DNA of 40,323 bases from the IMG/VR virus record IMGVR_UViG_2695420876_000014; one strand, 5' to 3'. Position numbers and translations under genes: made by a program. This DNA comes from a virus. Taxonomy: Duplodnaviria > Heunggongvirae > Uroviricota > Caudoviricetes. Below, piece by piece: positions 1,778 to 11,376 of the stretch; within the stretch, counting starts at the first letter, position 1; each line of letters opens with the position of its first letter. The notes below the pieces were generated by a model. That model did not search any database. It was given only the letters and a program-made list of their open reading frames with translations, and was not told the origin of the DNA.

Positions 1778-1978
1778 TTACCCATTGGCGCGGCTTAAGA
1801 GCTTATTTTTGAATTCACAATGGTCACGATATAACCATCTTGCTCGTCCGTGGATAACTTTGGCTTTAGGCAGGTCGCCGGACTTAATCCGGTCATAGAT
1901 GAAGGTTTTACCGAAGCCAGTATCGGCCATGATGAATTTCAAATCAACCAGTGAATCAGGTTGTAGTTCGTGTTGCAT
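1778..1978 (-). CDS. torI: excisionase / recombination directionality factor TorI (AlpA-like winged helix)
   Basis: 66-aa ORF MQHELQPDSLVDLKFIMADTGFGKTFIYDRIKSGDLPKAKVIHGRARWLYRDHCEFKNKLLSRANG recognised as TorI of the KplE1/CPS-53 prophage; placed next to the att core. Confidence 0.9.
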   Translation of the reverse strand: MQHELQPDSLVDLKFIMADTGFGKTFIYDRIKSGDLPKAKVIHGRARWLYRDHCEFKNKLLSRANG

Positions 1979-1996
1979 GAGTGCTATCTCCGAATA

Positions 1997-2012
1997 GGGA
2001 ATCGAACCTGCA
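1997..2012 (-). other. tRNA T-arm-like fragment (gggaatcgaacctgca), not a complete tRNA
   Basis: 16 nt match the reverse complement of the argW T-stem/loop region (GCAGGTTCGATTCC); the flanks do not complete a cloverleaf or an acceptor stem. Confidence 0.4.
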
Positions 2013-2020
2013 AATCAGGC

Positions 2021-2044
2021 AATAAAAAACCGCCATCAGGCGGC
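2021..2044 (-). terminator. rho-independent terminator on the minus strand, upstream of torI
   Basis: Minus-strand reading gccgcctgatggcgg followed by ttttttatt. Confidence 0.6.
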
Positions 2045-2109
2045 TTGGTGTTCTTTCAGTTCTTCAATTCGAATATTGGTTACATTGTTTTCATATATGA
2101 ATAAATAAA

Positions 2110-2322
2110 TTAGCTTTTTTCGTTGCCTTCGCTTTCTTTATTAATTTTAACAAACTCGTTTTTACCACGCTCTCCAAATGCGTCTTTAGAGTCGTTGTAT
2201 CCGCAATCGCAGCACACATAATCTCCAGACCATCCACGCATTGTTTTTTCTTTTGCAATATTTCCAGAACCGCATTTTGGACAAGACATATCACTACCTC
2301 CAAAGCATGAGTGAGATGACAA
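2110..2322 (-). CDS. small zinc-ribbon protein (CxxC...CxxC)
   Basis: 70-aa ORF with CPKCGSG and CCDCGY motifs; the true start may be the internal MSCPKCGSG (near 2289). Confidence 0.5.
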   Translation of the reverse strand: MSSHSCFGGSDMSCPKCGSGNIAKEKTMRGWSGDYVCCDCGYNDSKDAFGERGKNEFVKINKESEGNEKS

Positions 2323-2385
2323 CGTAACATTGATTGGAGATTAACAATAGATTGCTGATGTAAAAGATATGTATAAGCTTCGCTT

Positions 2386-3030
2386 TCAAAGTGGAGGCTC
2401 TGGTAGCGGCATCCAGTGTGACGGCTCACATACCCCCTCAACACCGTTCATGTAAAAGAATTGAAATAACCCTTTACCTTTGTGAAACCCTACCATCTGC
2501 TCTTTTGTGTCTGAACAATAAACCAAAACATCTTCTTCGTTTGGCATTCGCTCACTACAGCTTATCCAACTATCCGGAGTTACCGGAGAGTTGGTTGACG
2601 TTTCCGCAATATCCCGAAAATTATTGGTTGACGAATTCTTGTTTTCCCGAAAGTTTCCGGACTGAAGCATGGCGGCGCGGCAGGCGCTCCATCCAGCTGT
2701 TCGCCCAAGCGCGTAAACTTCAGATGGCTCAAGATAATCAATGTCATGCCCGTCCTCATCGTCGTTCTCAGGTAATGCAGCAGGTACTACCGGTACTGGC
2801 GGAGCGGCGTAGACTTCAATAATCCCATTATCAATAGGCCACTCTCCATCCTTGATGTAGTCACTTGTACCGTCAACTTGCTGTTCTGCAATGTGGAATG
2901 CACCAACTGGCTCTGCCTCAAGCGAGGCCAGTGCAATTCGTGCCAGTTCCATTTGTTCGCCACGGGTAAGCCCGTTTTCAAGCGGATTTTTAATGAATAA
3001 TTCGATACGTTCTTTGGTAATAGTGGTCAT
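2386..3030 (-). CDS. DUF551-domain phage protein
   Basis: 214-aa ORF with an acidic middle and a C-terminal segment ending SHWMPLPEPP, characteristic of DUF551 proteins in enterobacterial prophages. Confidence 0.65.
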   Translation of the reverse strand: MTTITKERIELFIKNPLENGLTRGEQMELARIALASLEAEPVGAFHIAEQQVDGTSDYIKDGEWPIDNGIIEVYAAPPVPVVPAALPENDDEDGHDIDYLEPSEVYALGRTAGWSACRAAMLQSGNFRENKNSSTNNFRDIAETSTNSPVTPDSWISCSERMPNEEDVLVYCSDTKEQMVGFHKGKGLFQFFYMNGVEGVCEPSHWMPLPEPPL

Positions 3031-3032
3031 AG

Positions 3033-3224
3033 CTATTTCACCTTAATCTCAACATTTCGCAGCTTTAGCTCTACTGGCAGGTCTGACTTTCCTGTTAATG
3101 CTAATGCGAGATTTTCTGGGGTAATGAGAGCAGTTATTGCTTTCCCCATTGCCAGACGAATAATTATTCGTATTTCGCGATCGTCACATGCTCCTGGTCG
3201 AACGATTGATATTTGTCCGTCCAT
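3033..3224 (-). CDS. hypothetical small phage protein
   Basis: Track ORF 3033..3266 trimmed to the internal Met (MDGQISIVRPG...) so that it abuts the upstream gene; no recognisable domain. Confidence 0.4.
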   Translation of the reverse strand: MDGQISIVRPGACDDREIRIIIRLAMGKAITALITPENLALALTGKSDLPVELKLRNVEIKVK

Positions 3225-3869: not shown

Positions 3870-4110
3870 TGGTTGCCTCCTGCTTTTCTGCCTTCAACAC
3901 CATGCGAGAACCATCATCCAGCTCCCACGCGATCTCACCACCTTCAGCCATGACCAGTCGCCACACCAATTGAGCAGCCTCATTGGTAACATCACGACCT
4001 GGATCATTGCCAACGCGCATACGTCCACCTTCAACATCGCGCATTTTTGCCAGCATGATAGTTTTTGATAGCGGTGAAAAACCAAGCTGTAGTCGTGCGG
4101 AATTACTCAC
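3856..4110 (-). CDS. hypothetical phage protein (GTG start)
   Basis: 84-aa ORF whose start overlaps the stop of the upstream gene. Confidence 0.45.
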
Positions 4111-4292
4111 TGCTTGCCTCCTTTACGCCACATCGCATTCAGATATTTGTTTTGATTCACTGATGGAAAAGAATTTCTCTTAAGCAATTCCTCTATCGAT
4201 GGCATTGGCTTTACGCGTTGGCGAATAATCATTTCTGCCGGAAGAATTCCGGGATTGTATGCAAGTCCTCTCATGGTAAATTCCTCAGTCAT
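4107..4292 (-). CDS. hypothetical small phage protein
   Basis: Track ORF 4107..4427 trimmed to [15 protein letters not shown]...; its ATG lies in an AATGACTGA overlap with the stop of the upstream gene. Confidence 0.4.
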
Positions 4293-4581
4293 TACTGATA
4301 GCGCCATAGCGTGAGCGGTAATTACGCAGGCGCGGGTCGATATATTCAGGGAAGTGGGTATATGTGGCTTTGCGGAATGGTCGGATTGATGTCTGGTAAA
4401 TTCGCTCGCGTTCTTCTTTCTCTGCAAGCCATATACAGTGGCGAAATTCCTTTTCCTCTTTCGTTTCCTGCGGTAGCGACATTATCAGGTCGTAGTTTTT
4501 TCTGAATTTATCCAGCACCTCCGATACGGAATTGCCGGAACAGCGGCGCGCGTCGTCCGCACCATACAGAGGCGCTGGCAT
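4285..4581 (-). CDS. hypothetical phage protein
   Basis: 98-aa ORF ([16 protein letters not shown]...) 13 nt downstream of ssb on the same strand. Confidence 0.5.
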
Positions 4582-4594
4582 GATTTTCTCCTGA

Positions 4595-5101
4595 TTAAAT
4601 TGCGTGAATAGCGTGACGAGGGAAGGGGAGAGTTACTGGTGCAAAGGGTATATCGTCGTCAAAATCCATCGGAGGTTCGTTGTGTTGTGCTGGTGATGAT
4701 TGCTGCTGTGGCTTCTGTGATTGCCTGCTGGCTGCTTGTTGTTTGCTGTCGCCAATGCCGCCAAGCATCTGCATCACGCCATTAATTCCGACATGAACCT
4801 CGGTTGTGTAACGGTCTTGCCCTGACTGGTCTTTCCACTTTCTGGTTCTCAGCATTCCCTCGAAATAAATCTGATCACCTTTTTTCACATACTGCCCCAC
4901 GACCTCAGCCAGTTTCCCGGATACAGCAACACGATGCCATTCAGTCAATTCCTTTTGCTCGCCAGTATTTTTATCTCGCCATTGTTCTGACGTGGCTATT
5001 GTCAGGTTAGCGAACGCTGTTCCTGATGGTGAGTATCGAACTTCCGGGTCTTGTCCTACCCGACCAAGGATAATCACCTTATTTACGCCTCTGCTTGCCA
5101 T
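4595..5101 (-). CDS. ssb: single-stranded DNA-binding protein
   Basis: 168 aa; N-terminal OB-fold sequence [23 protein letters not shown]...TEWHRV, Gln/Pro-rich linker and acidic C-terminal tail DFDDDIPF, as in bacterial and phage SSB. Confidence 0.93.
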
Positions 5102-5809
5102 TTATGCCGCCTGTTTTAGTTCGTTAACTCTGATGCTCATTACCTGAACGCATTTAGCCTGCGCATCCTCATTGCCAGCCATTAATTGCCAGTCACGCTG
5201 ATAACGCTCGATGAGTTTTTTCTTGTCAGTTTCTGTTGACGCATAATCGCTGAAGTCTTTCAGGATTTGTTCGCAGTCAACCGATGGAGATTTCTGGTTG
5301 GTATTTTCTGGTGATGGTTTGTTATCTGATGCTGGGATTGCCCATCCCGGAAGCGATGGAGGGAGCCAGTAAAATCCTGTTCCATCCTTCAGTTTTGCCC
5401 TGTGCCACCCCTGCTTTTTATCGAGAGATGTTTGTGCGAAACCTTCCTCAAGGTTATACAGATACCGACCGATTCCCCACTGAACGGCAGCGCGCTTCAT
5501 TGCACCGGAACGACCACCTTTGACGGCTTCTACCTGCGTGTTTTCAGCAGCATCCCATTTGGTTACCCATTCGGAATCAATCTTTATTGATATGCCGCAT
5601 TCAACGCCGCCGTTGTTGGGAATATCGCGGTATTCATTGCGCCATCCTGCTTTGCCGCAAACATCGTCCAGGCGTTTCATGATTGCCCGGTTCGTGACAT
5701 AAGCCAGCACCATAGCCCACACCTTGCCATCGCGTGTTTTACCGCTTTGCTGTATTCGCCATTCGATATCTTCAGGGCTGAATGGCTCATCGAATTTGTT
5801 CAAATCCAT
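5102..5809 (-). CDS. Rad52/Sak-type single-strand annealing recombinase
   Basis: 235 aa; central KGGRSGAMKRAAVQWGIGRYLYNL segment resembles the Rad52/22 family; sits next to ssb in the recombination position of the leftward early operon. Confidence 0.65.
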   Translation of the reverse strand: MDLNKFDEPFSPEDIEWRIQQSGKTRDGKVWAMVLAYVTNRAIMKRLDDVCGKAGWRNEYRDIPNNGGVECGISIKIDSEWVTKWDAAENTQVEAVKGGRSGAMKRAAVQWGIGRYLYNLEEGFAQTSLDKKQGWHRAKLKDGTGFYWLPPSLPGWAIPASDNKPSPENTNQKSPSVDCEQILKDFSDYASTETDKKKLIERYQRDWQLMAGNEDAQAKCVQVMSIRVNELKQAA

Positions 5810-5908
5810 AATTCACCTCAGAATGGACAAGGCCCAAGGAAATAACGCTGATTTAATACTTCGACTCGGGACAAATTAAGGCATACCCGCATTCCTTCGC
5901 GGTCGCCA

Positions 5909-6067
5909 TTATGGCGATACCAGAGAGCTTTCTGCGTGTACATGCGTCTCTGTAACTTGCTCTCCTTCACTGTGGTTGCAAGTGACATGAATATCTCCTT
6001 CGTTACCGATTAATTCTTTCATCTGACGAATGAATTCTTCGTCTGACCAGTTATCTGTAAAACTCAT
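5909..6067 (-). CDS. hypothetical small protein in the kil position
   Basis: 52-aa reading MSFTDNWSDEEFIRQMKELIGNEG...; ATG overlaps the cIII-like stop in an ATGA arrangement. Confidence 0.4.
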   Translation of the reverse strand: MSFTDNWSDEEFIRQMKELIGNEGDIHVTCNHSEGEQVTETHVHAESSLVSP

Positions 6068-6234
6068 GGACGGCCTTGTTGTTTCAAAATATCCCAAAGC
6101 TTTTCGAGCAAACTTTTCATTCTTGGTTGTTTAAAGTCTGCTCCGGTTAAAATATTTTTTCGTGAATGCTGCACCGATAAAATCGGGTTGAAAGGGCGAA
6201 CCGATGCCGCCCCTGCAATAGCGAACTGTTGCAT
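6064..6234 (-). CDS. cIII: cIII-like protein (FtsH inhibitor that stabilises CII)
   Basis: 56-aa reading MQQFAIAGAASVRPF...KSLLEKLWDILKQQGRP resembles lambda CIII (MQYAIAGW...KRLIDILNQPGVP); good SD (aaggag) before the ATG at 6232-6234; the longer track ORF 6064..6339 would read through a terminator. Confidence 0.55.
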   Translation of the reverse strand: MQQFAIAGAASVRPFNPILSVQHSRKNILTGADFKQPRMKSLLEKLWDILKQQGRP

Positions 6235-6297
6235 AGGATGCTCCTTCTGTTTGATTGCATAACGAAAACGCCTCAAGTGAAGCGTTATTGGTATGCA

Positions 6298-6323
6298 TAT
6301 AAAAAAGCCCTCGCACTGGAGGG
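6298..6323 (-). terminator. rho-independent terminator inside the leftward early operon (tL-like)
   Basis: Minus-strand reading gccctccagtgcgagggc followed by ttttttatat; lies between the ral-like and cIII-like genes. Confidence 0.6.
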
Positions 6324-6460
6324 CAAAGAAGATTTCCAATAATCAGAACAAGTCGGCTCCTGTTTAGTTACGAGCGACATTGCTCCGTGTATTCACTCGT
6401 TGGAATGAATACACAGTGCAGTGTTTATTCTGTTATTTATGCCAAAAATAAAGGCCACTA

Positions 6461-6661
6461 TCAGGCAGCTTTGTTGTTCTGTTTACCAAGTTCTCTGGCA
6501 ATCATTGCCGTCGCTCGTATTGCCCATTTATCGACATATTTCCCATCTTCCATTACAGGAAACATTTCTTCAGGCTTAACCATGCATTCCGATTGCAGCT
6601 TGCATCCATTGCATCGCTTGAATTGTCCACACCATTGATTTTTATCAATAGTCGTAGTCAT
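6461..6661 (-). CDS. ral: restriction alleviation protein Ral-like
   Basis: 66-aa ORF MTTTIDKNQWCGQFKRCNGCKLQSECMV... matches my recollection of lambda Ral in size, sequence and position between N and cIII; from memory only. Confidence 0.55.
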   Translation of the reverse strand: MTTTIDKNQWCGQFKRCNGCKLQSECMVKPEEMFPVMEDGKYVDKWAIRATAMIARELGKQNNKAA

Positions 6662-6874
6662 AAGGATAGTCCTGGTATTGTTCCATCACATCCTGGGGAT
6701 GCTCTTCGAACTCTTCAAATTCTTCTTCCATATATCACCTTAAATAGTGGATTGCGGTAGTAAAGATTGTGCCTGTCTTTTAACCACATCAGGCTCGGTG
6801 GTTCTCGTGTACCCCTACAGCGAGAAATCGGATAAACTCTATTCACCCCTACAGAGAGCAAAAGAGAAACGCCG

Positions 6875-7456
6875 ATGAACAACTCATGGTGGCAGGAACT
6901 AATGCATTTTTTCCTGCAAGGAATGACACTTAAACAGTTGATTCATATGCTAATCATCCTGATCATATTGATTATTGTTATGCCGGTAAGCGTAAAAGAA
7001 TGGATAAACCTGCATAATCCAGAAATCCTTCCTCATTACTGGATGTATTACATCCTGTTGTTTTGCGTTAGCTATGTGCTTAACGGCGTTGTTAATTCCG
7101 CTTATCACGCTGTGACTGAAAGAATTGAGGTATTCGCTGCTCAGAAGCGCAAATCTAAAGAAGAAAAATATGTGCAAGATTTGTTTGATTCGTTAACTCT
7201 TGGAGAAAGAGCGTATTTGGCATTCGCTGTAGCCGCTAATAACCAGCTACAAACGGAAAAGGGAGCTCATGAATCAATTTCATTGCTCAAAAAAGGACTC
7301 CTCGTTCGAAGGCCTCCTGCTGTTGGGTATCCTGATACCGACCGTTTTGTTATTCCTGAAAGCTATAGACATGAGTGCTACATTCGGTTTGCCGGGAAGG
7401 CAGACAGCCTTATGGATGAACTTATCGCTCAGGATAAGCATGGCAAAAACAAGTAA
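6875..7456 (+). CDS. sieB: superinfection exclusion protein SieB-like (two N-terminal TM helices)
   Basis: 193 aa with two hydrophobic helices (LIHMLIILIILIIVMPV and YILLFCVSYVLNGVV) and a soluble C-terminal domain; lies in the N-proximal early-left region but on the opposite strand to N. Confidence 0.55.
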   Translation: MNNSWWQELMHFFLQGMTLKQLIHMLIILIILIIVMPVSVKEWINLHNPEILPHYWMYYILLFCVSYVLNGVVNSAYHAVTERIEVFAAQKRKSKEEKYVQDLFDSLTLGERAYLAFAVAANNQLQTEKGAHESISLLKKGLLVRRPPAVGYPDTDRFVIPESYRHECYIRFAGKADSLMDELIAQDKHGKNK

Positions 7457-7472
7457 TTAGCAAATGAATTTA

Positions 7473-7856
7473 TCATCTCGCCGTCAGTTGTTTGGATTTC
7501 CGGTAGCCTGCCGCGTAAATGGCTACGTTTGGAAGACATACACCAGTTTCTGGTTGCTTATGTCCAAACTCATTCGCGTACACAATGGCCGCTCGCTCCA
7601 GATTGCGTCTGTATTCTTTCTGTTGCCAGATCACGTCCTGTGCCATGAACTTAATTGGCTTAGCGTCTTCTATACGCTCAGGCGTTTCGTGAGTACCTTT
7701 AGCCTGAATCTGCGCTCTGCTTAGAGTAGGGCGGTGTAATACTTCTGAACTTATTGCTTCTTCGCGGGCCAGTACGCCGTTAGCTAATGCCTTTACCTTT
7801 AAACGCTCACGACGACGAGAACGTGAATTGCCTTTGAACTGAGTTCTGCGTGTCAT
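7473..7856 (-). CDS. N-like transcription antiterminator with a P22-type arginine-rich motif
   Basis: 127 aa; N-terminus MTRRTQFKGNSRSRRRERLKVKALANG resembles the RNA-binding ARM of P22/phage-21 N proteins; strong SD (aggagg) before the ATG; matching P22-type boxB hairpins found at both nut positions. Confidence 0.75.
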   Translation of the reverse strand: MTRRTQFKGNSRSRRRERLKVKALANGVLAREEAISSEVLHRPTLSRAQIQAKGTHETPERIEDAKPIKFMAQDVIWQQKEYRRNLERAAIVYANEFGHKQPETGVCLPNVAIYAAGYRKSKQLTAR

Positions 7857-8021
7857 ATAGACCTCCTGATGAACTTTGGTGGTGTGGTAGGTGGGAGACC
7901 CATTTCGACCTGTTTCGGCCTACTTCAATTCGGCAATAGTCCCGCAGGCCTCGCCGCTTTACGTGCGACATATTCCCGTCCATGAACCCTTCACCACACC
8001 CCAAAGTTCACTTTGGTTATT

Positions 8022-8036
8022 GCGCTTTGTCAGCGC
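8022..8036 (-). promoter_or_regulatory. nutL boxB hairpin (minus-strand GCGCTGACAAAGCGC)
   Basis: Reverse complement of 8022-8036 is GCGCTGACAAAGCGC, a 5-bp stem with GACAA pentaloop as in P22 boxB; upstream of N in the leftward transcript. No convincing boxA was found next to it. Confidence 0.6.
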
Positions 8037-8107
8037 CGTAGATTCATATTCGAATCGTTGTATATTCACCGCCCTGGTGAGTAGTGCGTCCTGCTGATGG
8101 GTGAACT

Positions 8108-8160
8108 TTATCGGAATGATAAATTAATGGCAATAGCAAAATGATAAATTCTCTTGGTTT
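8108..8160. promoter_or_regulatory. OL/pL region with repeated ATGATAAAT operator-like half-sites
   Basis: ggaatgataaattaatgg and aaaatgataaattctc in an AT-rich gap upstream of nutL and N; the same motif recurs three times between cI and cro. Confidence 0.45.
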
Positions 8161-8330
8161 TCAAATATCGTATTGATTCTTATGGTGTTTTATTTTGTTG
8201 TAGGAATTCGACAGGATAAATAAAGAGATTTGAGGGAGATCTGGATTGCGTTGTTTAGCAAGTTGTATCTATTTATTTTTCAACAAATACAATTGGTTAT
8301 GTGTTTTTAGGTGTGGGGATCGTGAGGCAA

Positions 8331-8354
8331 AGAAAACCCGGCGCTGAGGCCGGG
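8331..8354 (-). terminator. rho-independent terminator ending the cI operon
   Basis: Minus-strand reading cccggcctcagcgccggg followed by ttttcttt, just downstream of the stop at 8363. Confidence 0.7.
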
Positions 8355-8362
8355 TTAATGCG

Positions 8363-8983
8363 TTAATGCTGGGGAGTGATTTTTTTGTTGTCTGTTGGCT
8401 GGGTATTTTGTGGCGGCGCTTGCAAAGTGGAAGGCTGTTGCAAAGGTACGTGGTCTGACTTTAAAGCTGATACCAGCCCGGGAATCGCAACTATTACAGC
8501 GATAATGACACTAAAAATGGCTAATCGTATAGAAATACCCGACTGAACACCACTAATTGCGGTATTAACCCCTGTTATTTGTCCTTGAATTCCTTCGAAT
8601 CTCCCATTAATTGCTTTTATATCGCCAGCAGCGCTATCCATCTTTCCATCGATCTTGGACGATAGAGAGCTTATGGCTGCATTAAGTGATGCAAATTGGA
8701 CATTAACGCTTTCACGAGATAGAGCCATGTCAGCCCTAATGGAAGAAGCAATAGACTCCATCTCTGCTTTATTAGCAGCTAAGCGAGCATCAAGTTCCTC
8801 TCTGCTGATCGTTCCCACTTCTTCCTCCGTTTGTGGCGGTTTTATGTAATTATTTTGCACCTTGGTGGGAGAATTATCAAATTCAGCCTCAAAATCGGAA
8901 CCGCCAACAACCTTCAACCTCCGGCTTTCAGATATGTTGGTGTCTTGCTTTCCATGATTATTTAAATTACTGTCGTCACTCAT
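8363..8983 (-). CDS. tail-anchored coiled-coil membrane protein of unknown function (third gene of the cI operon)
   Basis: 206 aa: polar N-terminus, long Ser/Ala-rich heptad-like middle, one C-terminal TM helix (IRLAIFSVIIAVIVAIPGLVSAL) and a Pro/Gln-rich tail; ATG overlaps the stop of the upstream gene (ATGA). Confidence 0.6.
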   Translation of the reverse strand: MSDDSNLNNHGKQDTNISESRRLKVVGGSDFEAEFDNSPTKVQNNYIKPPQTEEEVGTISREELDARLAANKAEMESIASSIRADMALSRESVNVQFASLNAAISSLSSKIDGKMDSAAGDIKAINGRFEGIQGQITGVNTAISGVQSGISIRLAIFSVIIAVIVAIPGLVSALKSDHVPLQQPSTLQAPPQNTQPTDNKKITPQH

Positions 8984-9468
8984 AATAGCTCTACGGTGAA
9001 AAATGATTCATTTTTATGAAGTTCATTTTTAGGGTCTTCATTATCTTGCAATATCCCTATAACACTATACAGCCCTTTAGCTGGGACCCTAATTTCTTTC
9101 AATGTTACTATTACCTGTCCGCCAACCCCTGTTTCAAAATGGCTATCTTTCGTATCGATGAAAAGTGAAACTGATTCCGAAGAGCCGTCAGGGAATTGAA
9201 TTTCCTCACCTTTTTTTATAATTAGGTGCGCGGGGATTACCATAATACCCAAATTATATCTTGAATTTGGTTTCAACCCGATCATACCAACCCTGAAATC
9301 AATTGATAGCCGCGCAGGAAATTCATTGCATGTAAAATTAAGCGTCGGTTGGTTGGGTTCTTCGCTGCTATCAAATGGGGTTATAAAAGATATTCTTTCT
9401 AAATTAAGTGCCATAAATTCTCCTGCATCGCTGTATGCTCTACGAGCATCTCTGCGATCATCCATCAT
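8980..9468 (-). CDS. hypothetical protein (second gene of the cI operon)
   Basis: 162-aa ORF; a better-supported start is the internal MALNLERISF at 9414 (aggag 8 nt upstream), giving 144 aa; no recognisable domain. Confidence 0.55.
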   Translation of the reverse strand: MMDDRRDARRAYSDAGEFMALNLERISFITPFDSSEEPNQPTLNFTCNEFPARLSIDFRVGMIGLKPNSRYNLGIMVIPAHLIIKKGEEIQFPDGSSESVSLFIDTKDSHFETGVGGQVIVTLKEIRVPAKGLYSVIGILQDNEDPKNELHKNESFFTVELL

Positions 9469-9484
9469 CCAAACGTCTCTTCAC

Positions 9485-9826
9485 TCATCCGAAGAAGCAG
9501 CAATCCGGGTCAGCACGCACAAGCTCAAGCGCATCAGTCAGCGAAAGTTCAGTACTGTACTGATGCCATTTCATATCCTTCCGCATCCAATAGATTTTCC
9601 ATCTATCCAGAGAACGTATGTACTTGATTCTTGCTGATGGCAGGATGTTTGTTTCACCTGGGTTGCCCTGCCACACGGGGCGCTGTTCGCCGATATCTAT
9701 CGTTTGGTCATTGATGCTATAAACAATATCCAGTTCATTGCGGATATGTTCAGGCGGCCTTATGCTTTCAATGAATTGGTGAACTTCTTTTTTGACCGCT
9801 TGATATTCAAGGTCAGTGAACGCCAT
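9485..9826 (-). CDS. hypothetical protein (first gene downstream of cI)
   Basis: 113-aa ORF MAFTDLEYQAVKKEVHQFIESIRPPEH... with a strong SD (gaggagg) 4 nt before the ATG; 60 nt downstream of the cI stop on the same strand. Confidence 0.6.
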   Translation of the reverse strand: MAFTDLEYQAVKKEVHQFIESIRPPEHIRNELDIVYSINDQTIDIGEQRPVWQGNPGETNILPSARIKYIRSLDRWKIYWMRKDMKWHQYSTELSLTDALELVRADPDCCFFG

Positions 9827-9886
9827 CTATCCTCCTCACCCAAACGTTTCTTCTGGCCACTGGTTACCAGCTATGTGACGATGAAG

Positions 9887-10591
9887 TCACGAACTTTTCA
9901 GCCACTCCCTTGCCTCGATGTCATCCAGATGGCGAGATTGCTTCAGAATACCAGCTACATACTCCACCTTTGCTACTTGATGATAAGGCAACGTTATAGG
10001 CCTGTGATCCTGGTTAATGCTTGTAAATTGGTATTCTCCATCTCTGTCATAGCCAAGAACCTTAATCATGTTGTGTCCTTCAACGGTTCTGACAAACACC
10101 TCATCACCCGGGAATACTTTGGTGTTAGGCTCAATGAGTACATATTCTCCTGATTTTATTCTGGGCCACATGCTGTCTCCTTTCACACGAAGACCAAAGG
10201 CATCTGGATCATCGCTATAAATTTTGAGCCACCCATCGCGCTCTTCGGTCATCTCGATGGCACCATCAACACCAAGAATTGCCTCACCAACCACGCGCAC
10301 TAACCCTTTTCTTACCTGACCGACAAAAGTTAAAGAATCTGAGCATGATGCAATTGGTGTTACATCATGTACCAAATCAAGCCACCCATTAGGTAACCCA
10401 AGCGCGGCTTCAAATTTTCTTGCTAGTTTATCCCCTATGTTTCGAGTGCTTTTTTCACCGGAGACTTGCGTGAGTTGAGAAGGGCTAACCCCAAGCTTAT
10501 CGGCAAAGCTTGCATTAGTGTTACCCGCGATTTTTTTATGCTCATCTAGCAAAAACGCCAGATTCGATTTGCGAATATCTTTGTTTTCCAT
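9887..10591 (-). CDS. cI: CI-like prophage repressor (N-terminal HTH, C-terminal S24 LexA-type autopeptidase)
   Basis: 234 aa; HTH-like FADKLGVSPSQLTQV and a C-terminal domain with VKGDSMWPRIKSGEYVLIEPN (catalytic Ser, with Lys downstream) typical of RecA-cleavable repressors; divergent from the cro-like gene. Confidence 0.9.
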   Translation of the reverse strand: MENKDIRKSNLAFLLDEHKKIAGNTNASFADKLGVSPSQLTQVSGEKSTRNIGDKLARKFEAALGLPNGWLDLVHDVTPIASCSDSLTFVGQVRKGLVRVVGEAILGVDGAIEMTEERDGWLKIYSDDPDAFGLRVKGDSMWPRIKSGEYVLIEPNTKVFPGDEVFVRTVEGHNMIKVLGYDRDGEYQFTSINQDHRPITLPYHQVAKVEYVAGILKQSRHLDDIEAREWLKSS

Positions 10592-10611
10592 CTCACAATT
10601 TTCCCTCTATT

Positions 10612-10672
10612 TAGCAAATGGATAAATACGCAATATGATAAATTTACATTGCGGATTATTTATCAAAATGGT
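10612..10672. promoter_or_regulatory. OR/pR/pRM region with three GATAAAT-type operator half-sites
   Basis: aaatggataaatacg, aatatgataaatttac and, inverted, attatttatcaaaatgg lie between the divergent cI and cro starts. Confidence 0.5.
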
Positions 10673-10704
10673 AAAGTTGTTCTGTGTGATAAACGGAGGC
10701 ACTA

Positions 10705-10938
10705 ATGAGTAATGAACTACTACGCTGGCGAAAAGAGGCTTCTAGTGAGGAATGGAAGCGACTCGCCGCATTAGCGAAAACTTCAGTTGGCTATCTTGAC
10801 CAGATTGCATATGGATTTCGAAGAGCTTCCCCTGATAAAGCGAATGCAATCGAAGAAGCTACTCGTAATTTCACGGGTTATAAACCTGTGAAAAAGGAAA
10901 ACCTAGTGTTCGTATCGCGTAGAGCATCGGCTGCATAA
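10705..10938 (+). CDS. cro: Cro-like HTH regulator
   Basis: 77-aa ORF divergent from cI, preceded by an SD (ggagg); contains an HTH-like segment (AKTSVGYLDQIAYGFRRAS). Confidence 0.55.
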   Translation: MSNELLRWRKEASSEEWKRLAALAKTSVGYLDQIAYGFRRASPDKANAIEEATRNFTGYKPVKKENLVFVSRRASAA

Positions 10939-10945
10939 GTAACAC

Positions 10946-10991
10946 CGCTCTTTTCACAATGGACATTCGTCCTACGTCGCTGACAAAGCGA
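10946..10991 (+). promoter_or_regulatory. nutR: boxA (cgctctttt) and P22-type boxB (tcgctgacaaagcga)
   Basis: boxA-like CGCTCTTTT at 10946-10954; hairpin with GACAA loop at 10977-10991; located between cro and cII on the rightward transcript. Confidence 0.6.
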
Positions 10992-11076
10992 GTCCCAATA
11001 TATCTGACCAACTAAGGCCATATGCGTTTCCACGCATACCTTTCAACTAGCTATTCACTATTGGAAATCTTAAGAA

Positions 11077-11376
11077 ATGGAACAAACAAGTTACAGCAAA
11101 CTATCACAGCGAGAAATTGATCGCGCTGAAACTGATTTACTCATCAACCTGTCAACGCTTACCCAGCGCGGTCTGGCAAAGATGATTGGCTGTCATGAAT
11201 CGAAGATAAGCAGAACGGACTGGAGATTTATTGCTTCGGTCTTGTGTGCTTTCGGAATGGCATCAGACATCAGTCCGATTAGCAGGGCTTTTAAGTATGC
11301 GCTTGATGAACTCACCAATAAAAAACGCCCGGTGTGCAAGACCGAGCGTTCTGAACAAATCAAGATGGAATTCTGA
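11077..11376 (+). CDS. cII: CII-like transcriptional activator
   Basis: 99 aa; C-terminus ELTNKKRPVCKTERSEQIKMEF closely resembles lambda CII (ILTNKKRPAATERSEQIQMEF); sits between cro and O. Confidence 0.8.
   Translation: MEQTSYSKLSQREIDRAETDLLINLSTLTQRGLAKMIGCHESKISRTDWRFIASVLCAFGMASDISPISRAFKYALDELTNKKRPVCKTERSEQIKMEF

What the first reader, a model, noticed from the sequence alone, without database searches (positions are those of the whole stretch)
8363..9826. Unrecognised three-gene operon directly downstream of the cI repressor, in the rexAB position
Three co-directional genes follow cI on the same strand: 9485-9826 (113 aa, strong SD), 8980-9468 (144-162 aa) and 8363-8983 (206 aa, translationally coupled by ATGA, tail-anchored coiled-coil membrane protein). 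They end at a strong terminator (8331-8354) and precede OL and N. Lambdoid phages keep lysogen-expressed exclusion or abortive-infection systems at exactly this spot (rexAB in lambda). None of the three resembles a family I recognise, and the DNA looks more AT-rich than the flanking core genes. This is the best candidate here for an undescribed prophage-encoded defence or exclusion system.
Basis: partly seen in the sequence, partly recalled or inferred. Interest (0 to 1): 0.85.

Follow-up and report, generated by a model that had tools for sequence, protein, structure and literature searches.

The report
Untested prophage defence cassette behind cI
Behind the prophage repressor gene sit a known-but-unstudied small gene and a separate, uncharacterised two-gene cassette (a soluble protein plus a membrane-anchored rod), in a slot where related phages keep proven anti-phage systems. 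The cassette is therefore a good but untested candidate for a new phage-exclusion module.

Summary
The three genes are real, co-directional, under purifying selection, and end at a terminator before OL/PL and N.

They are two independent modules, not one three-gene system.

- **Gene 1** (9485-9826) is Pfam DUF3024 and PADLOC candidate PDC-S43, identical in kind to 933W L0084.
- **Genes 2 and 3** (8980-9414, 144 aa; 8363-8983, 206 aa) are a discrete cassette, 98% identical to phage HK542. Here it replaces 933W's L0083-stk-L0081 between shared flanks.

Gene 2 models as a generic Ig-like β-sandwich. Gene 3 is a tail-anchored coiled-coil protein.

In all 48 related loci with usable upstream sequence (41 viral contigs, 7 others), a gene-3 homologue follows a small partner gene. 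There are four unrelated partner families, and the gene-3 N-terminus co-varies with them. An upstream repressor-like ORF was found in 43 of the 48.

The same slot holds Stk/PD-T4-6 in 933W. Behind the identical cI allele in BP-4795 it holds PD-Lambda-2.

The cassette matches no Pfam, NCBIfam, PADLOC or PDB family, and I found no paper on it.

Best reading (about 0.55): a lysogen-expressed exclusion module with an exchangeable cytoplasmic sensor and a membrane-anchored effector. Function and mechanism are inferred, not shown.

The parts
9887..10591 (-). cI repressor (LexA-like, S24 peptidase C-terminal domain). It is the upstream gene of the transcription unit. Its immunity type is that of Stx phage BP-4795, while its C-terminal two-thirds are 933W-like.
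   Evidence: Pfam Peptidase_S24 E 3.8e-16. Window 10330-10940 is 99.8% identical to BP-4795 cI/cro. Window 9446-10340 is 97.8% identical to 933W.
9485..9826 (-). g1: 113-aa DUF3024 protein, matching PADLOC candidate PDC-S43 and 933W L0084. It is a separate module that sits as the conserved first gene after S24-type repressors and ahead of a hypervariable cargo slot.
9446..9483 (.). Recombination junction. This 38-bp stretch is shared by 933W (downstream of L0084) and HK542 (downstream of cI), and marks the upstream flank of the exchangeable cargo. Together with 9415-9445 it forms the conserved untranslated leader of g2.
   Evidence: The HK542 match ends at 9483 and the 933W match begins at 9446. 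The GenBank record EF120458 annotates 'boundary sequence' features in this immunity region.
8980..9414 (-). g2: 144-aa soluble all-β protein, proposed to be the exchangeable partner or specificity subunit.
8363..8983 (-). g3: 206-aa tail-anchored coiled-coil membrane protein. Residues 1-57 are a variable head. A conserved helix follows (SREEL..LAANKAE), then six Gly-rich heptads, a transmembrane segment at about 154-174, and a P/Q-rich 32-aa tail. Proposed to be the conserved membrane effector or scaffold.
   Evidence: Alignment of 23 homologues, including 7-residue indels. Hydropathy and heptad register. Only sub-threshold coiled-coil Pfam hits. ATGA overlap with g2. The N-terminus co-varies with the partner family: 52 of 60 pairs similar within families, 0 of 150 between.
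8335..8356 (-). Intrinsic terminator ending the cI-g1-g2-g3 unit. It corresponds to Timm of HK542 and tM of 933W, and is the downstream shared flank of the cargo slot (shared region 8236-8357).
   Evidence: 8-bp stem with 6 GC pairs, followed by a T run. Annotated Timm/tM in EF120458 and AF125520. Both phages align across it.
8105..8155 (-). Presumed OL/PL: two copies of the operator-like motif ATGATAAATT, also present in OR, flanking a σ70-like promoter.
   Evidence: Promoter-like site at 8133-8105. Shared 10-mers at 8116-8125 and 8141-8150 versus 10635-10644.

Best explanation
The stretch is the lysogen-expressed accessory slot between cI and OL/PL of a lambdoid (Stx-phage-like) prophage. 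It holds two independent cargo modules, which are probably read through from the repressor promoter and end at one terminator.

**Module 1** is a DUF3024 gene (g1).

**Module 2** is a self-contained cassette of about 1.1 kb (g2 + g3). I judge it most likely to be a two-component anti-phage exclusion system.
- g3 is anchored in the inner membrane by its C-terminal helix. A roughly 95-residue oligomeric coiled-coil stalk and an N-terminal head project into the cytoplasm.
- g2, a small soluble β-sandwich, docks on that head and supplies specificity for a component of an infecting phage.
- Recognition is passed to g3, which acts at the membrane. It either collapses membrane integrity or potential (Rex-like abortive infection, my preferred version) or blocks an early membrane-associated step of infection.

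**Shown:** gene reality and selection, the mosaic cassette exchange, the obligate pairing with a partner gene, the partner/head co-variation, and occupancy of the slot by validated defence systems.

**Inferred:** co-transcription with cI, the g2-g3 physical contact, the Nin-Cout topology, any anti-phage phenotype, and the mode of action.
For: **1. The slot is a defence hotspot.**
- 933W carries L0083-stk-L0081 there. stk matches PADLOC PD-T4-6 (E 1e-37) and mad6 (E 7e-50).
- BP-4795 has the identical cI allele and carries ORF22-21-20, matching PD-Lambda-2_A (2.5e-42), PD-Lambda-2_B (3.8e-50) and a PD-T4-9_C-like protein.
- Another cargo found after DUF3024 matches PDC-M63A (5e-44).
- The literature places rexAB and bstA in this region and reports stk as co-transcribed with cI.

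**2. Precise cassette exchange.** g2-g3 replaces the stk module between shared flanks at 9446-9483 and 8236-8357.

**3. Position in related loci.** In all 48 related loci with usable upstream sequence (41 IMG/VR contigs, 7 from other collections), the g3 homologue directly follows a small partner gene. An upstream repressor-like ORF on the same strand, of many unrelated N-terminal types, was found in 43 of them. Four lack one, and in one Yersinia locus the module follows DinI instead.

**4. Variable partner, conserved partner.**
- g3 always follows a small partner gene, and there are four partner families with no detectable relationship.
- The g3 N-terminal 55-100 residues co-vary with the partner family, while the stalk and anchor stay conserved.
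- A g2 homologue at 40% identity (L057) is again followed, with an ATGA overlap, by a g3 relative that keeps the 'LKLVAGTD..F' head motif.

**5. Purifying selection** on all three genes.

**6. g3 architecture.** A conserved basic residue lies on the cytoplasmic side of a single C-terminal transmembrane segment, and an uncharged Gly/Ser/Thr/Gln-rich amphipathic stretch sits next to that segment.

**7. Transcription.** No minus-strand terminator lies between cI and 8356.
Against: - No phenotype is known for any of the three genes.
- g2 and g3 match no PADLOC model convincingly. The best hit is LmuB at E 0.016, which is coiled-coil noise.
- The β-sandwich fold of g2 is generic, and its model has only moderate confidence (pLDDT 70.7; three of the five models scored below 40).
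- The heptad core positions carried into the g3 transmembrane segment are large hydrophobic residues. The resting helix bundle therefore does not look like an open pore.
- The Gly-rich segment and the periplasmic tail are missing in the L057 relative, so they cannot be essential to a family-wide mechanism.
- Guilt by association with a hotspot is not proof. Such slots also carry genes that tune the phage's own switch, as Hex does.
- Partner/head co-variation could partly reflect shared ancestry of whole cassettes.
Confidence: 0.55

Rival explanations
1. All three genes form one three-component defence system. DUF3024 would be an obligatory sensor or regulator for the g2-g3 effector pair.
For: - The three genes are adjacent and co-directional, with no terminator between them.
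- The exact trio recurs in 18 complete E. coli genomes and 13 viral contigs.
- DUF3024 is itself a PADLOC candidate.
Against: - g2-g3 occurs without g1 in HK542/HK244, in 33 of the 51 E. coli genomes that carry it, and in all the Klebsiella, Citrobacter and Phytobacter-type loci examined.
- g1 precedes at least 14 unrelated cargoes, including the stk module.
- The junction at 9446-9483 separates sequences of different ancestry.
Confidence: 0.08
2. The genes serve the prophage's own lysis-lysogeny switch rather than exclusion. They would modulate repressor cleavage, induction frequency or the commitment to lytic growth, as reported for 434 Hex (and, from my own knowledge, for λ RexA).
For: - Hex, encoded on the PRM transcript downstream of the 434 repressor, interferes with RecA-stimulated repressor autocleavage (PMC3564112).
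- In 76 of 83 DUF3024 loci, the ORF upstream of g1 belongs to the S24 (RecA-cleavable) repressor cluster.
Against: - g1 also follows a non-S24 HTH repressor in Kluyvera.
- In an Erwinia prophage, g1 sits beside DinI and tail genes with no repressor nearby.
- g2-g3 follows repressors of many unrelated types, including short non-cleavable ones, which argues against a repressor-specific partner.
- The structural similarity to PsiB is no stronger than to frataxin, Mediator subunits or actin-capping protein.
Confidence: 0.14
3. g2-g3 is a lysogenic-conversion module that changes host envelope or stress physiology and has no role against phages. It would resemble the host tail-anchored proteins ElaB, YqjD and YgaM, or DUF1640/MCUR1-type membrane scaffolds.
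For: - g3 shares the architecture of cytoplasmic coiled coil plus C-terminal anchor.
- A g3 relative (L057) gives a sub-threshold hit to Pfam CCDC90-like/DUF1640 (E 1.2e-6, 29 bits against a cut-off of 33.5) and to PDB 6H9L (E 0.17).
- DUF1640 proteins form large membrane-bound oligomeric scaffolds (PMC7519068).
Against: - The family is confined to prophages in every locus examined, and nearly always to the repressor-adjacent slot.
- It exchanges with validated defence cassettes.
- A hypervariable partner with a matched head is the pattern expected of an arms race, not of housekeeping.
- The window g3 itself reaches only E 0.12 for CCDC90-like, and just 4 of 23 family members hit it at all.
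Confidence: 0.13
4. g2-g3 is an addiction (toxin-antitoxin-like) pair that stabilises the prophage. g3 would be a membrane toxin held in check by g2.
For: - The two genes are small, tightly coupled by an ATGA overlap, and always paired.
- One product is a small membrane protein.
- Another cargo found after DUF3024 looks MqsR/MqsA-like.
Against: - Neither gene shows homology to a known TA family.
- Neither protein contains a DNA-binding antitoxin-like domain.
- This reading overlaps heavily with abortive-infection defence, because many TA modules are defence systems. It is therefore only a weak alternative.
Confidence: 0.08

Closest known systems
λ RexA/RexB (abortive-infection pair downstream of cI)
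   Same: - It occupies the same genomic slot, between cI and the Timm terminator and ahead of OL/PL and N.
- It is presumably read from PRM.
- It has the same two-gene logic of a cytoplasmic component plus an inner-membrane component.
- In wild λ-immunity phages HK542 and HK244, the g2-g3 cassette sits where λ carries rexAB.
   Different: - No sequence similarity to either Rex protein.
- g3 has one C-terminal transmembrane helix and a long coiled coil, whereas RexB is a polytopic membrane protein (own knowledge).
- g2 is a 144-aa β-sandwich, not a RexA-like DNA-binding protein.
- The trigger, phenotype and any ion-channel activity are unknown.
933W L0083-Stk-L0081 cassette (Stk tyrosine/Ser-Thr kinase, PADLOC PD-T4-6)
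   Same: - It is the direct positional alternative. It lies between the same 38-bp upstream flank and the same terminator flank, downstream of the same DUF3024 gene.
- Stk is reported to abort HK97 infection of 933W lysogens and to be co-transcribed with cI.
   Different: - The window has no kinase.
- g2 shows no similarity to L0083.
- The effector here is a membrane protein rather than an enzyme.
PD-Lambda-2 in Stx phage BP-4795
   Same: It occupies the slot behind the identical cI allele, 99.8% identical across cI-cro. This shows that one immunity type carries alternative defence cargoes.
   Different: - It is a three-gene system with no similarity to g1, g2 or g3.
- BP-4795 has no DUF3024 gene there.
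BstA (Salmonella prophage BTP1)
   Same: It is a prophage defence gene that is conserved immediately downstream of diverse repressors (PMC8585504).
   Different: It is a single large cytoplasmic protein with a DNA-based self-immunity element, and shares no homology with these genes.
CCDC90-like / DUF1640 (MCUR1, CCDC90B, yeast Put6/Put7; prokaryotic homologue PDB 6H9L)
   Same: - It shares the head, coiled-coil stalk and C-terminal transmembrane anchor, with the bulk of the protein on the N-in side.
- The g3 relative in L057 gives weak hits: Pfam E 1.2e-6 and 6H9L E 0.17.
   Different: - All hits fall below Pfam's gathering score.
- The window g3 reaches only E 0.12.
- The Gly-rich heptad array is not a feature of that family.
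- Coiled-coil composition alone may explain the hits.
PADLOC PDC-S43 / Pfam DUF3024 (g1 only)
   Same: g1 matches both models over their full length. It is the same gene as 933W L0084, 98% identical at the DNA level.
   Different: PDC-S43 is only a computational candidate. I found no experimental test and no paper that mentions DUF3024.

Membership tests
λ RexAB exclusion system | Located downstream of cI, before the Timm terminator and OL/PL | tested here: met
   Gene order is cI, g1, g2, g3, terminator (8356-8335), OL/PL, N. In HK542 the cassette directly follows a λ-type cI.
λ RexAB exclusion system | Sequence homology to RexA and RexB | tested here: not met
   No Rex family appeared in the Pfam, NCBIfam, PADLOC or PHROG scans or in the PDB sequence searches.
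λ RexAB exclusion system | Polytopic membrane component (RexB) | tested here: not met
   g3 has a single hydrophobic segment at 154-174, and g2 has none.
λ RexAB exclusion system | Excludes T4 rII mutants through loss of membrane potential | not testable with these tools
   This needs plaque assays and membrane-potential assays.
Pfam DUF3024 / PADLOC PDC-S43 (g1) | Full-length HMM match above the curated cut-off | tested here: met
   DUF3024 scores 108.7 bits against a cut-off of 24.9, covering residues 4-113 of 113. PDC-S43 E 7.2e-42, covering residues 1-113.
Pfam DUF3024 / PADLOC PDC-S43 (g1) | Demonstrated anti-phage activity | not testable with these tools
   No paper in the library mentions DUF3024. 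PDC-S43 appears once, as a predicted candidate only.
Pfam CCDC90-like (DUF1640) (g3) | HMM score at or above the gathering threshold of 33.5 bits | tested here: not met
   Window g3 scores 12.6 bits (E 0.12). Only 4 of 23 family members hit, best E 0.0044. The L057 relative scores 29 bits.
Pfam CCDC90-like (DUF1640) (g3) | Coiled coil followed by a single C-terminal transmembrane anchor | tested here: met
   Heptad region at about residues 58-152 and a transmembrane segment at 154-174.
Pfam CCDC90-like (DUF1640) (g3) | Trimeric head-neck-stalk structure | not tested
SieB superinfection exclusion | Match to Pfam SieB (PF14163) | tested here: not met
   g3 gives no SieB hit. The SieB-family gene of this prophage is a different ORF, 6875-7456 on the plus strand (E 2.5e-22).
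Tripartite α-pore-forming toxins (SmhB / MakE, ClyA-like) | Significant sequence match to a family member | tested here: not met
   NCBIfam MakE scores 15.6 bits against a cut-off of 360. PDB SmhB E 0.013 over 58 residues. These are compositional-level hits only.
Known defence systems in PADLOC-DB 2.0.0 (g2, g3) | HMM match to any system component | tested here: not met
   g2 has no hit. g3 hits only LmuB at E 0.016 (11.9 bits).

The most novel reading that the evidence does not exclude
g3 defines a previously unrecognised, modular class of prophage immunity. A conserved tail-anchored coiled-coil membrane protein would serve as a common effector chassis. Phages would re-arm it by swapping a matched pair, a small sensor protein plus the N-terminal head of g3, among at least four unrelated sensor folds. 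The chassis may also be a distant bacterial or phage relative of the mitochondrial MCUR1/CCDC90 scaffold family. Separately, DUF3024 would mark the 5' edge of a cargo-exchange site behind S24 repressors and have its own role.
Probability: 0.3. Interest if true: 0.72.

Novelty: new variant of a known kind. Interest (0 to 1): 0.55.

Why it matters
If the g2-g3 cassette is a defence system, it adds a family that the 2023 PADLOC models miss. It would also have an unusually clear architecture of variable sensor plus conserved membrane effector.

Four unrelated partner families, each with a matched head on g3, give natural chimeras for testing how specificity is encoded and how a signal reaches the membrane.

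The analysis also maps, to the base, a cassette-exchange site in Stx-type and λ-type prophages (flanks 9446-9483 and 8236-8357). That site alternately carries Stk/PD-T4-6, PD-Lambda-2 and this cassette. This is useful for mining further systems and for understanding phage-phage competition among EHEC prophages.

The cassette is rare: about 1% of complete E. coli genomes and one isolated phage lineage. Its ecological weight is therefore modest.

Tried and rejected
**Homology searches on g2 and g3 gave nothing usable.**
- I ran Pfam, NCBIfam, PADLOC and PHROGs.
- I ran PDB profile searches.
- I ran a full HMMER scan of 1.84 billion representative proteins with the g2 profile.
- The output was unknown-function PHROGs and coiled-coil noise (Baculo_PEP_C, NPV_P10, DUF1664, LmuB, SlaB, MakE, SmhB).

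**Structure searches were uninformative about function.**
- The g2 model matches generic Ig-like/FN3/CBM sandwiches in the PDB.
- In BFVD it matches uncharacterised small phage proteins.
- The afdb50 library was unavailable.

**Specific relationships tested and rejected.**
- g2 is not related to 933W L0083.
- Partner families A, B and C are not related to each other by hhalign.

**Literature searches found nothing on these genes.**
- Search terms were DUF3024, PDC-S43, HK542/HK244, protein accession numbers, and prophage-defence screens.
- Brenes & Laub 2025, Degnan et al. 2007 and Adlakha et al. 2019 are not held. A description in one of those papers cannot be excluded.

**Other checks.**
- Rfam gave no credible RNA in 7300-11100.
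- Repeat search found nothing notable in 8000-10000.
- Internal promoters are no more frequent than in shuffled sequence.
A narrower alignment found one informative locus, L057.
Full report
**1. Observation**

The minus strand of 8363-9826 carries three ORFs directly downstream of a LexA-like cI gene at 9887-10591 (Peptidase_S24, E 3.8e-16).
- g1 (9485-9826, 113 aa) has a GAGGAGG ribosome-binding site.
- g2 is best read from ATG 9414 (144 aa, preceded by AGGAG), not from 9468. All nine aligned homologues begin 'MA.N.ER', and PHROG 5893 aligns from residue 21 of the longer ORF.
- g3 (8363-8983, 206 aa) starts in an ATGA overlap with the g2 stop.

A G+C-rich hairpin with a T-run at 8356-8335 is the only minus-strand terminator-like site between cI and that point. 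Beyond it lie a PL-like promoter, two copies of an operator-like 10-mer shared with OR (8116-8150), and then N.

The g2-g3 DNA is moderately AT-rich: 41.2% GC against 47.4% for the window, the 6th percentile of 1.1-kb windows. g1 is not AT-rich at 45.9%.

Against homologues, synonymous sites are saturated while dN is 0.08-0.28. The ratios that could be computed are 0.08-0.24. All three are therefore real genes under purifying selection.

**2. The 'operon' is a mosaic of two modules**

- Window 9446-10340 (g1 plus the C-terminal two-thirds of cI) is 98% identical to Stx phage 933W. There, g1 is L0084 and is followed by L0083-stk-L0081.
- Window 8236-9483 (g2, g3 and the terminator) is 98% identical to phage HK542/HK244. 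These are wild λ-immunity phages in which the two genes directly follow a λ-type cI, in the position where λ carries rexAB.
- The two similarities overlap in a 38-bp stretch (9446-9483). Both phages also align across the terminator region (8236-8357). The g2-g3 cassette has therefore replaced the stk cassette between shared flanks.

The modules also occur independently.
- g2-g3 is in 51 of 5,426 complete E. coli genomes. It is always single-copy and chromosomal.
- Only 18 of those genomes have the g1-g2-g3 arrangement.
- Among 50,697 phage records, only HK542 and HK244 encode g3.

**3. g1**

g1 is a full-length member of Pfam DUF3024 (E 2.4e-31). It also matches PADLOC's computational candidate PDC-S43 (E 7.2e-42).

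I examined 83 DUF3024 loci.
- The upstream ORF falls in a single S24-repressor cluster in 76. It is an unrelated HTH protein in 1, and none was found in 6.
- The gene downstream is hypervariable:
  - the L0083-stk module in 31 loci;
  - a roughly 175-aa gene in 18;
  - g2-g3 in 12;
  - a ParA-like ATPase in 6;
  - a lipoprotein in 4;
  - about ten singletons, including an MqsR/MqsA-like pair.

g1 is thus a conserved 'first gene' at the edge of a cargo slot, not a dedicated partner of g2-g3. I found no paper that mentions DUF3024. PDC-S43 appears once, as a prediction that co-occurs with PD-T4-6 in an O157:H7 strain.

**4. g2**

g2 has no hit in Pfam, NCBIfam, PADLOC or PDB sequences.

The family is tiny. 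There are 12 clusters among 5.8 billion proteins, all in Enterobacteriaceae where a source names the organism. About 20 credible relatives appear among 1.84 billion representatives.

It has no hydrophobic segment. The model (pLDDT 70.7) is a seven-stranded β-sandwich.
- It resembles uncharacterised small phage proteins in BFVD.

**5. g3**

g3 has 28 homologue clusters across Enterobacterales. The alignment shows, in order:
- a variable N-terminus;
- a conserved helix 'SREEL.A.LAANKAE..IAS';
- six Gly-rich heptads ([I/V]xGxΦxx), with exact 7-residue insertions in some homologues;
- a basic residue, then a single hydrophobic helix at about 154-174;
- a short tail with a semi-conserved 'QPIIIQVPQ' motif.

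With no signal peptide and a 150-residue hydrophilic N-terminal part, a tail-anchored Nin-Cout topology is the natural inference.

Family scans give only sub-threshold coiled-coil hits.
- Baculo_PEP_C hits 23 of 23 members, NPV_P10 18, DUF1664 17 and CCDC90-like 4.
- MakE and SmhB hits have E values of 0.006-0.013.

A shorter relative beside a 40%-identical g2 homologue (L057) is clearly homologous over the head and first helix (hhalign probability 99%). It lacks the Gly heptads and the tail. It reaches 29 bits on CCDC90-like/DUF1640, against a cut-off of 33.5. Membership of that family is therefore not established.

**6. Context across relatives**

I examined 48 related loci with usable upstream sequence: 41 IMG/VR contigs and 7 from other collections.
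- In every one, a small gene lies immediately upstream of the g3 homologue, usually overlapping or within a few bases.
- An upstream repressor-like ORF on the same strand was found in 43. These ORFs have many unrelated N-terminal types, including λ cI, 933W/BP-4795 type, several other S24 proteins, and short Rac-like HTH repressors paired with YdaS/YdaT.
- Four loci had no such ORF within range.
- In one Yersinia locus the module sits beside DinI and tail genes instead. An Erwinia prophage carries DUF3024 plus the stk module in that same kind of slot.

The small partner falls into four families with no detectable relationship:
- g2-type, 143-144 aa;
- two families of about 96-101 aa;
- a 112-135-aa CxxC zinc-ribbon type.

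The g3 N-terminal 55-100 residues co-vary with the partner family. 52 of 60 within-family pairs are similar, against 0 of 150 between-family pairs. The stalk and anchor stay conserved.

I read this as a matched partner-head interface on a constant chassis. Shared descent of whole cassettes contributes to the signal.

**7. Is the slot a defence slot?**

Yes.
- 933W stk matches PD-T4-6 and mad6 (E 1e-37 to 7e-50).
- The immunity region of this window (cI N-terminus plus cro) is 99.8% identical to Stx phage BP-4795. Behind that same cI, BP-4795 carries three genes matching PD-Lambda-2_A (2.5e-42), PD-Lambda-2_B (3.8e-50) and a PD-T4-9_C-like protein.
- Another DUF3024-adjacent cargo matches PDC-M63A (5e-44).
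- Two further cargoes had no hit.

Published work states that stk is co-transcribed with cI and aborts HK97 infection, and that many lambdoid phages encode exclusion functions on the PRM transcript (PMC3564112). It also describes the cI-N interval as a mosaic hotspot holding rexAB and bstA (PMC8585504).

**8. Mechanism (inference)**

The best-supported model is a two-component exclusion module expressed in the lysogen.
- g3 oligomerises through its coiled coil and is anchored in the inner membrane.
- g2 binds the g3 head and recognises a phage component.
- The output is exerted at the membrane.

I favour a Rex-like abortive outcome. My reasons are the slot, the sensor-plus-membrane-protein logic, and the uncharged amphipathic segment adjoining the transmembrane helix.

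There are clear caveats.
- The heptad core in the membrane is hydrophobic, so there is no obvious resting pore.
- The L057 relative lacks the Gly-rich segment.
- A block of an early membrane-associated step is a live alternative.

Rival readings cannot be excluded without experiments. They are switch modulation as with Hex, host-physiology conversion as with DUF1640 or ElaB-type scaffolds, and an addiction module.

**9. Novelty and verdict**

- g1 is an already catalogued but untested candidate.
- The g2-g3 cassette matches nothing in the 2023 PADLOC models, and I found no literature on it.
- It is a new variant of a known kind, namely prophage exclusion cargo in the rex slot. Its modular design is noteworthy.
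- Interest is moderate. The position-based expectation of defence is not surprising to specialists, and the function is unproven. The partner/head modularity and the precisely mapped exchange site do make it directly testable.

Noticed in passing
window 6875-7456 (+): A 193-aa SieB-family superinfection-exclusion gene lies just beyond N on the opposite strand (Pfam SieB E 2.5e-22; PHROG 1301). It is a second likely lysogen-expressed exclusion function in the same prophage.
   Followed up: partly
window 9887-10940: The repressor is a hybrid. Its C-terminal two-thirds are 98% identical to 933W cI. Its N-terminal DNA-binding part and cro are 99.8% identical to Stx1 phage BP-4795, so the prophage has BP-4795 immunity with 933W-like flanks.
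   Followed up: yes
L138 (BP-4795, AJ556162.1) 1880-3221: ORF22-21-20 of BP-4795 are annotated as hypothetical proteins. They match PADLOC PD-Lambda-2_A, PD-Lambda-2_B and a PD-T4-9_C-like model. This Stx phage therefore appears to carry a validated-type defence system directly behind cI.
   Followed up: partly
L009 (Yersinia) 5221-6699 and L012 (Erwinia) 4071-7130: A g3-type module, and a DUF3024 plus L0083-kinase module, each also occur in a second kind of slot. That slot is next to a DinI gene and the tail or baseplate genes of Mu/P2-like prophages, so these cassettes move between distinct moron sites.
   Followed up: no
alignment A2, columns 247-253 and 265-271 (g3 homologues P0017, P0019, P0034, P0035, P0036, P0037): Some g3 homologues carry exact 7-residue insertions (for example IDGKIEG). 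These add one heptad to the Gly-rich repeat array, so the stalk length varies in whole heptads.
   Followed up: no
L042-L045, about 4420-4890: The zinc-ribbon partner gene (family D) appears as 112-, 120- and 135-aa versions that differ only at the C-terminal end. This suggests frameshift variants just upstream of the g3 start.
   Followed up: no
L057 3722-3934: In one metagenomic phage, a 70-aa treble-clef zinc-finger gene (weak DUF2116 hit, E 3.8e-4) sits between the S24 repressor and the g2/g3-like pair. It occupies the place that DUF3024 takes in the window.
   Followed up: no
L117-L119, L125-L127 (downstream of DUF3024): Six viral contigs carry a 368-aa ParA/MinD-like ATPase as the first cargo gene after DUF3024. 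It gives only a weak PADLOC PDC-M28B hit (E 1.6e-8 over 42 residues).
   Followed up: partly
L056 (NZ_CP145657.1) 8174-8242: This E. coli genome is 100% identical to the window over 8300-9900. There, the gene in the N position is annotated as an incomplete pseudogene ('regulator'), so that copy of the prophage is probably defective although the cI-g1-g2-g3 unit is intact.
   Followed up: no
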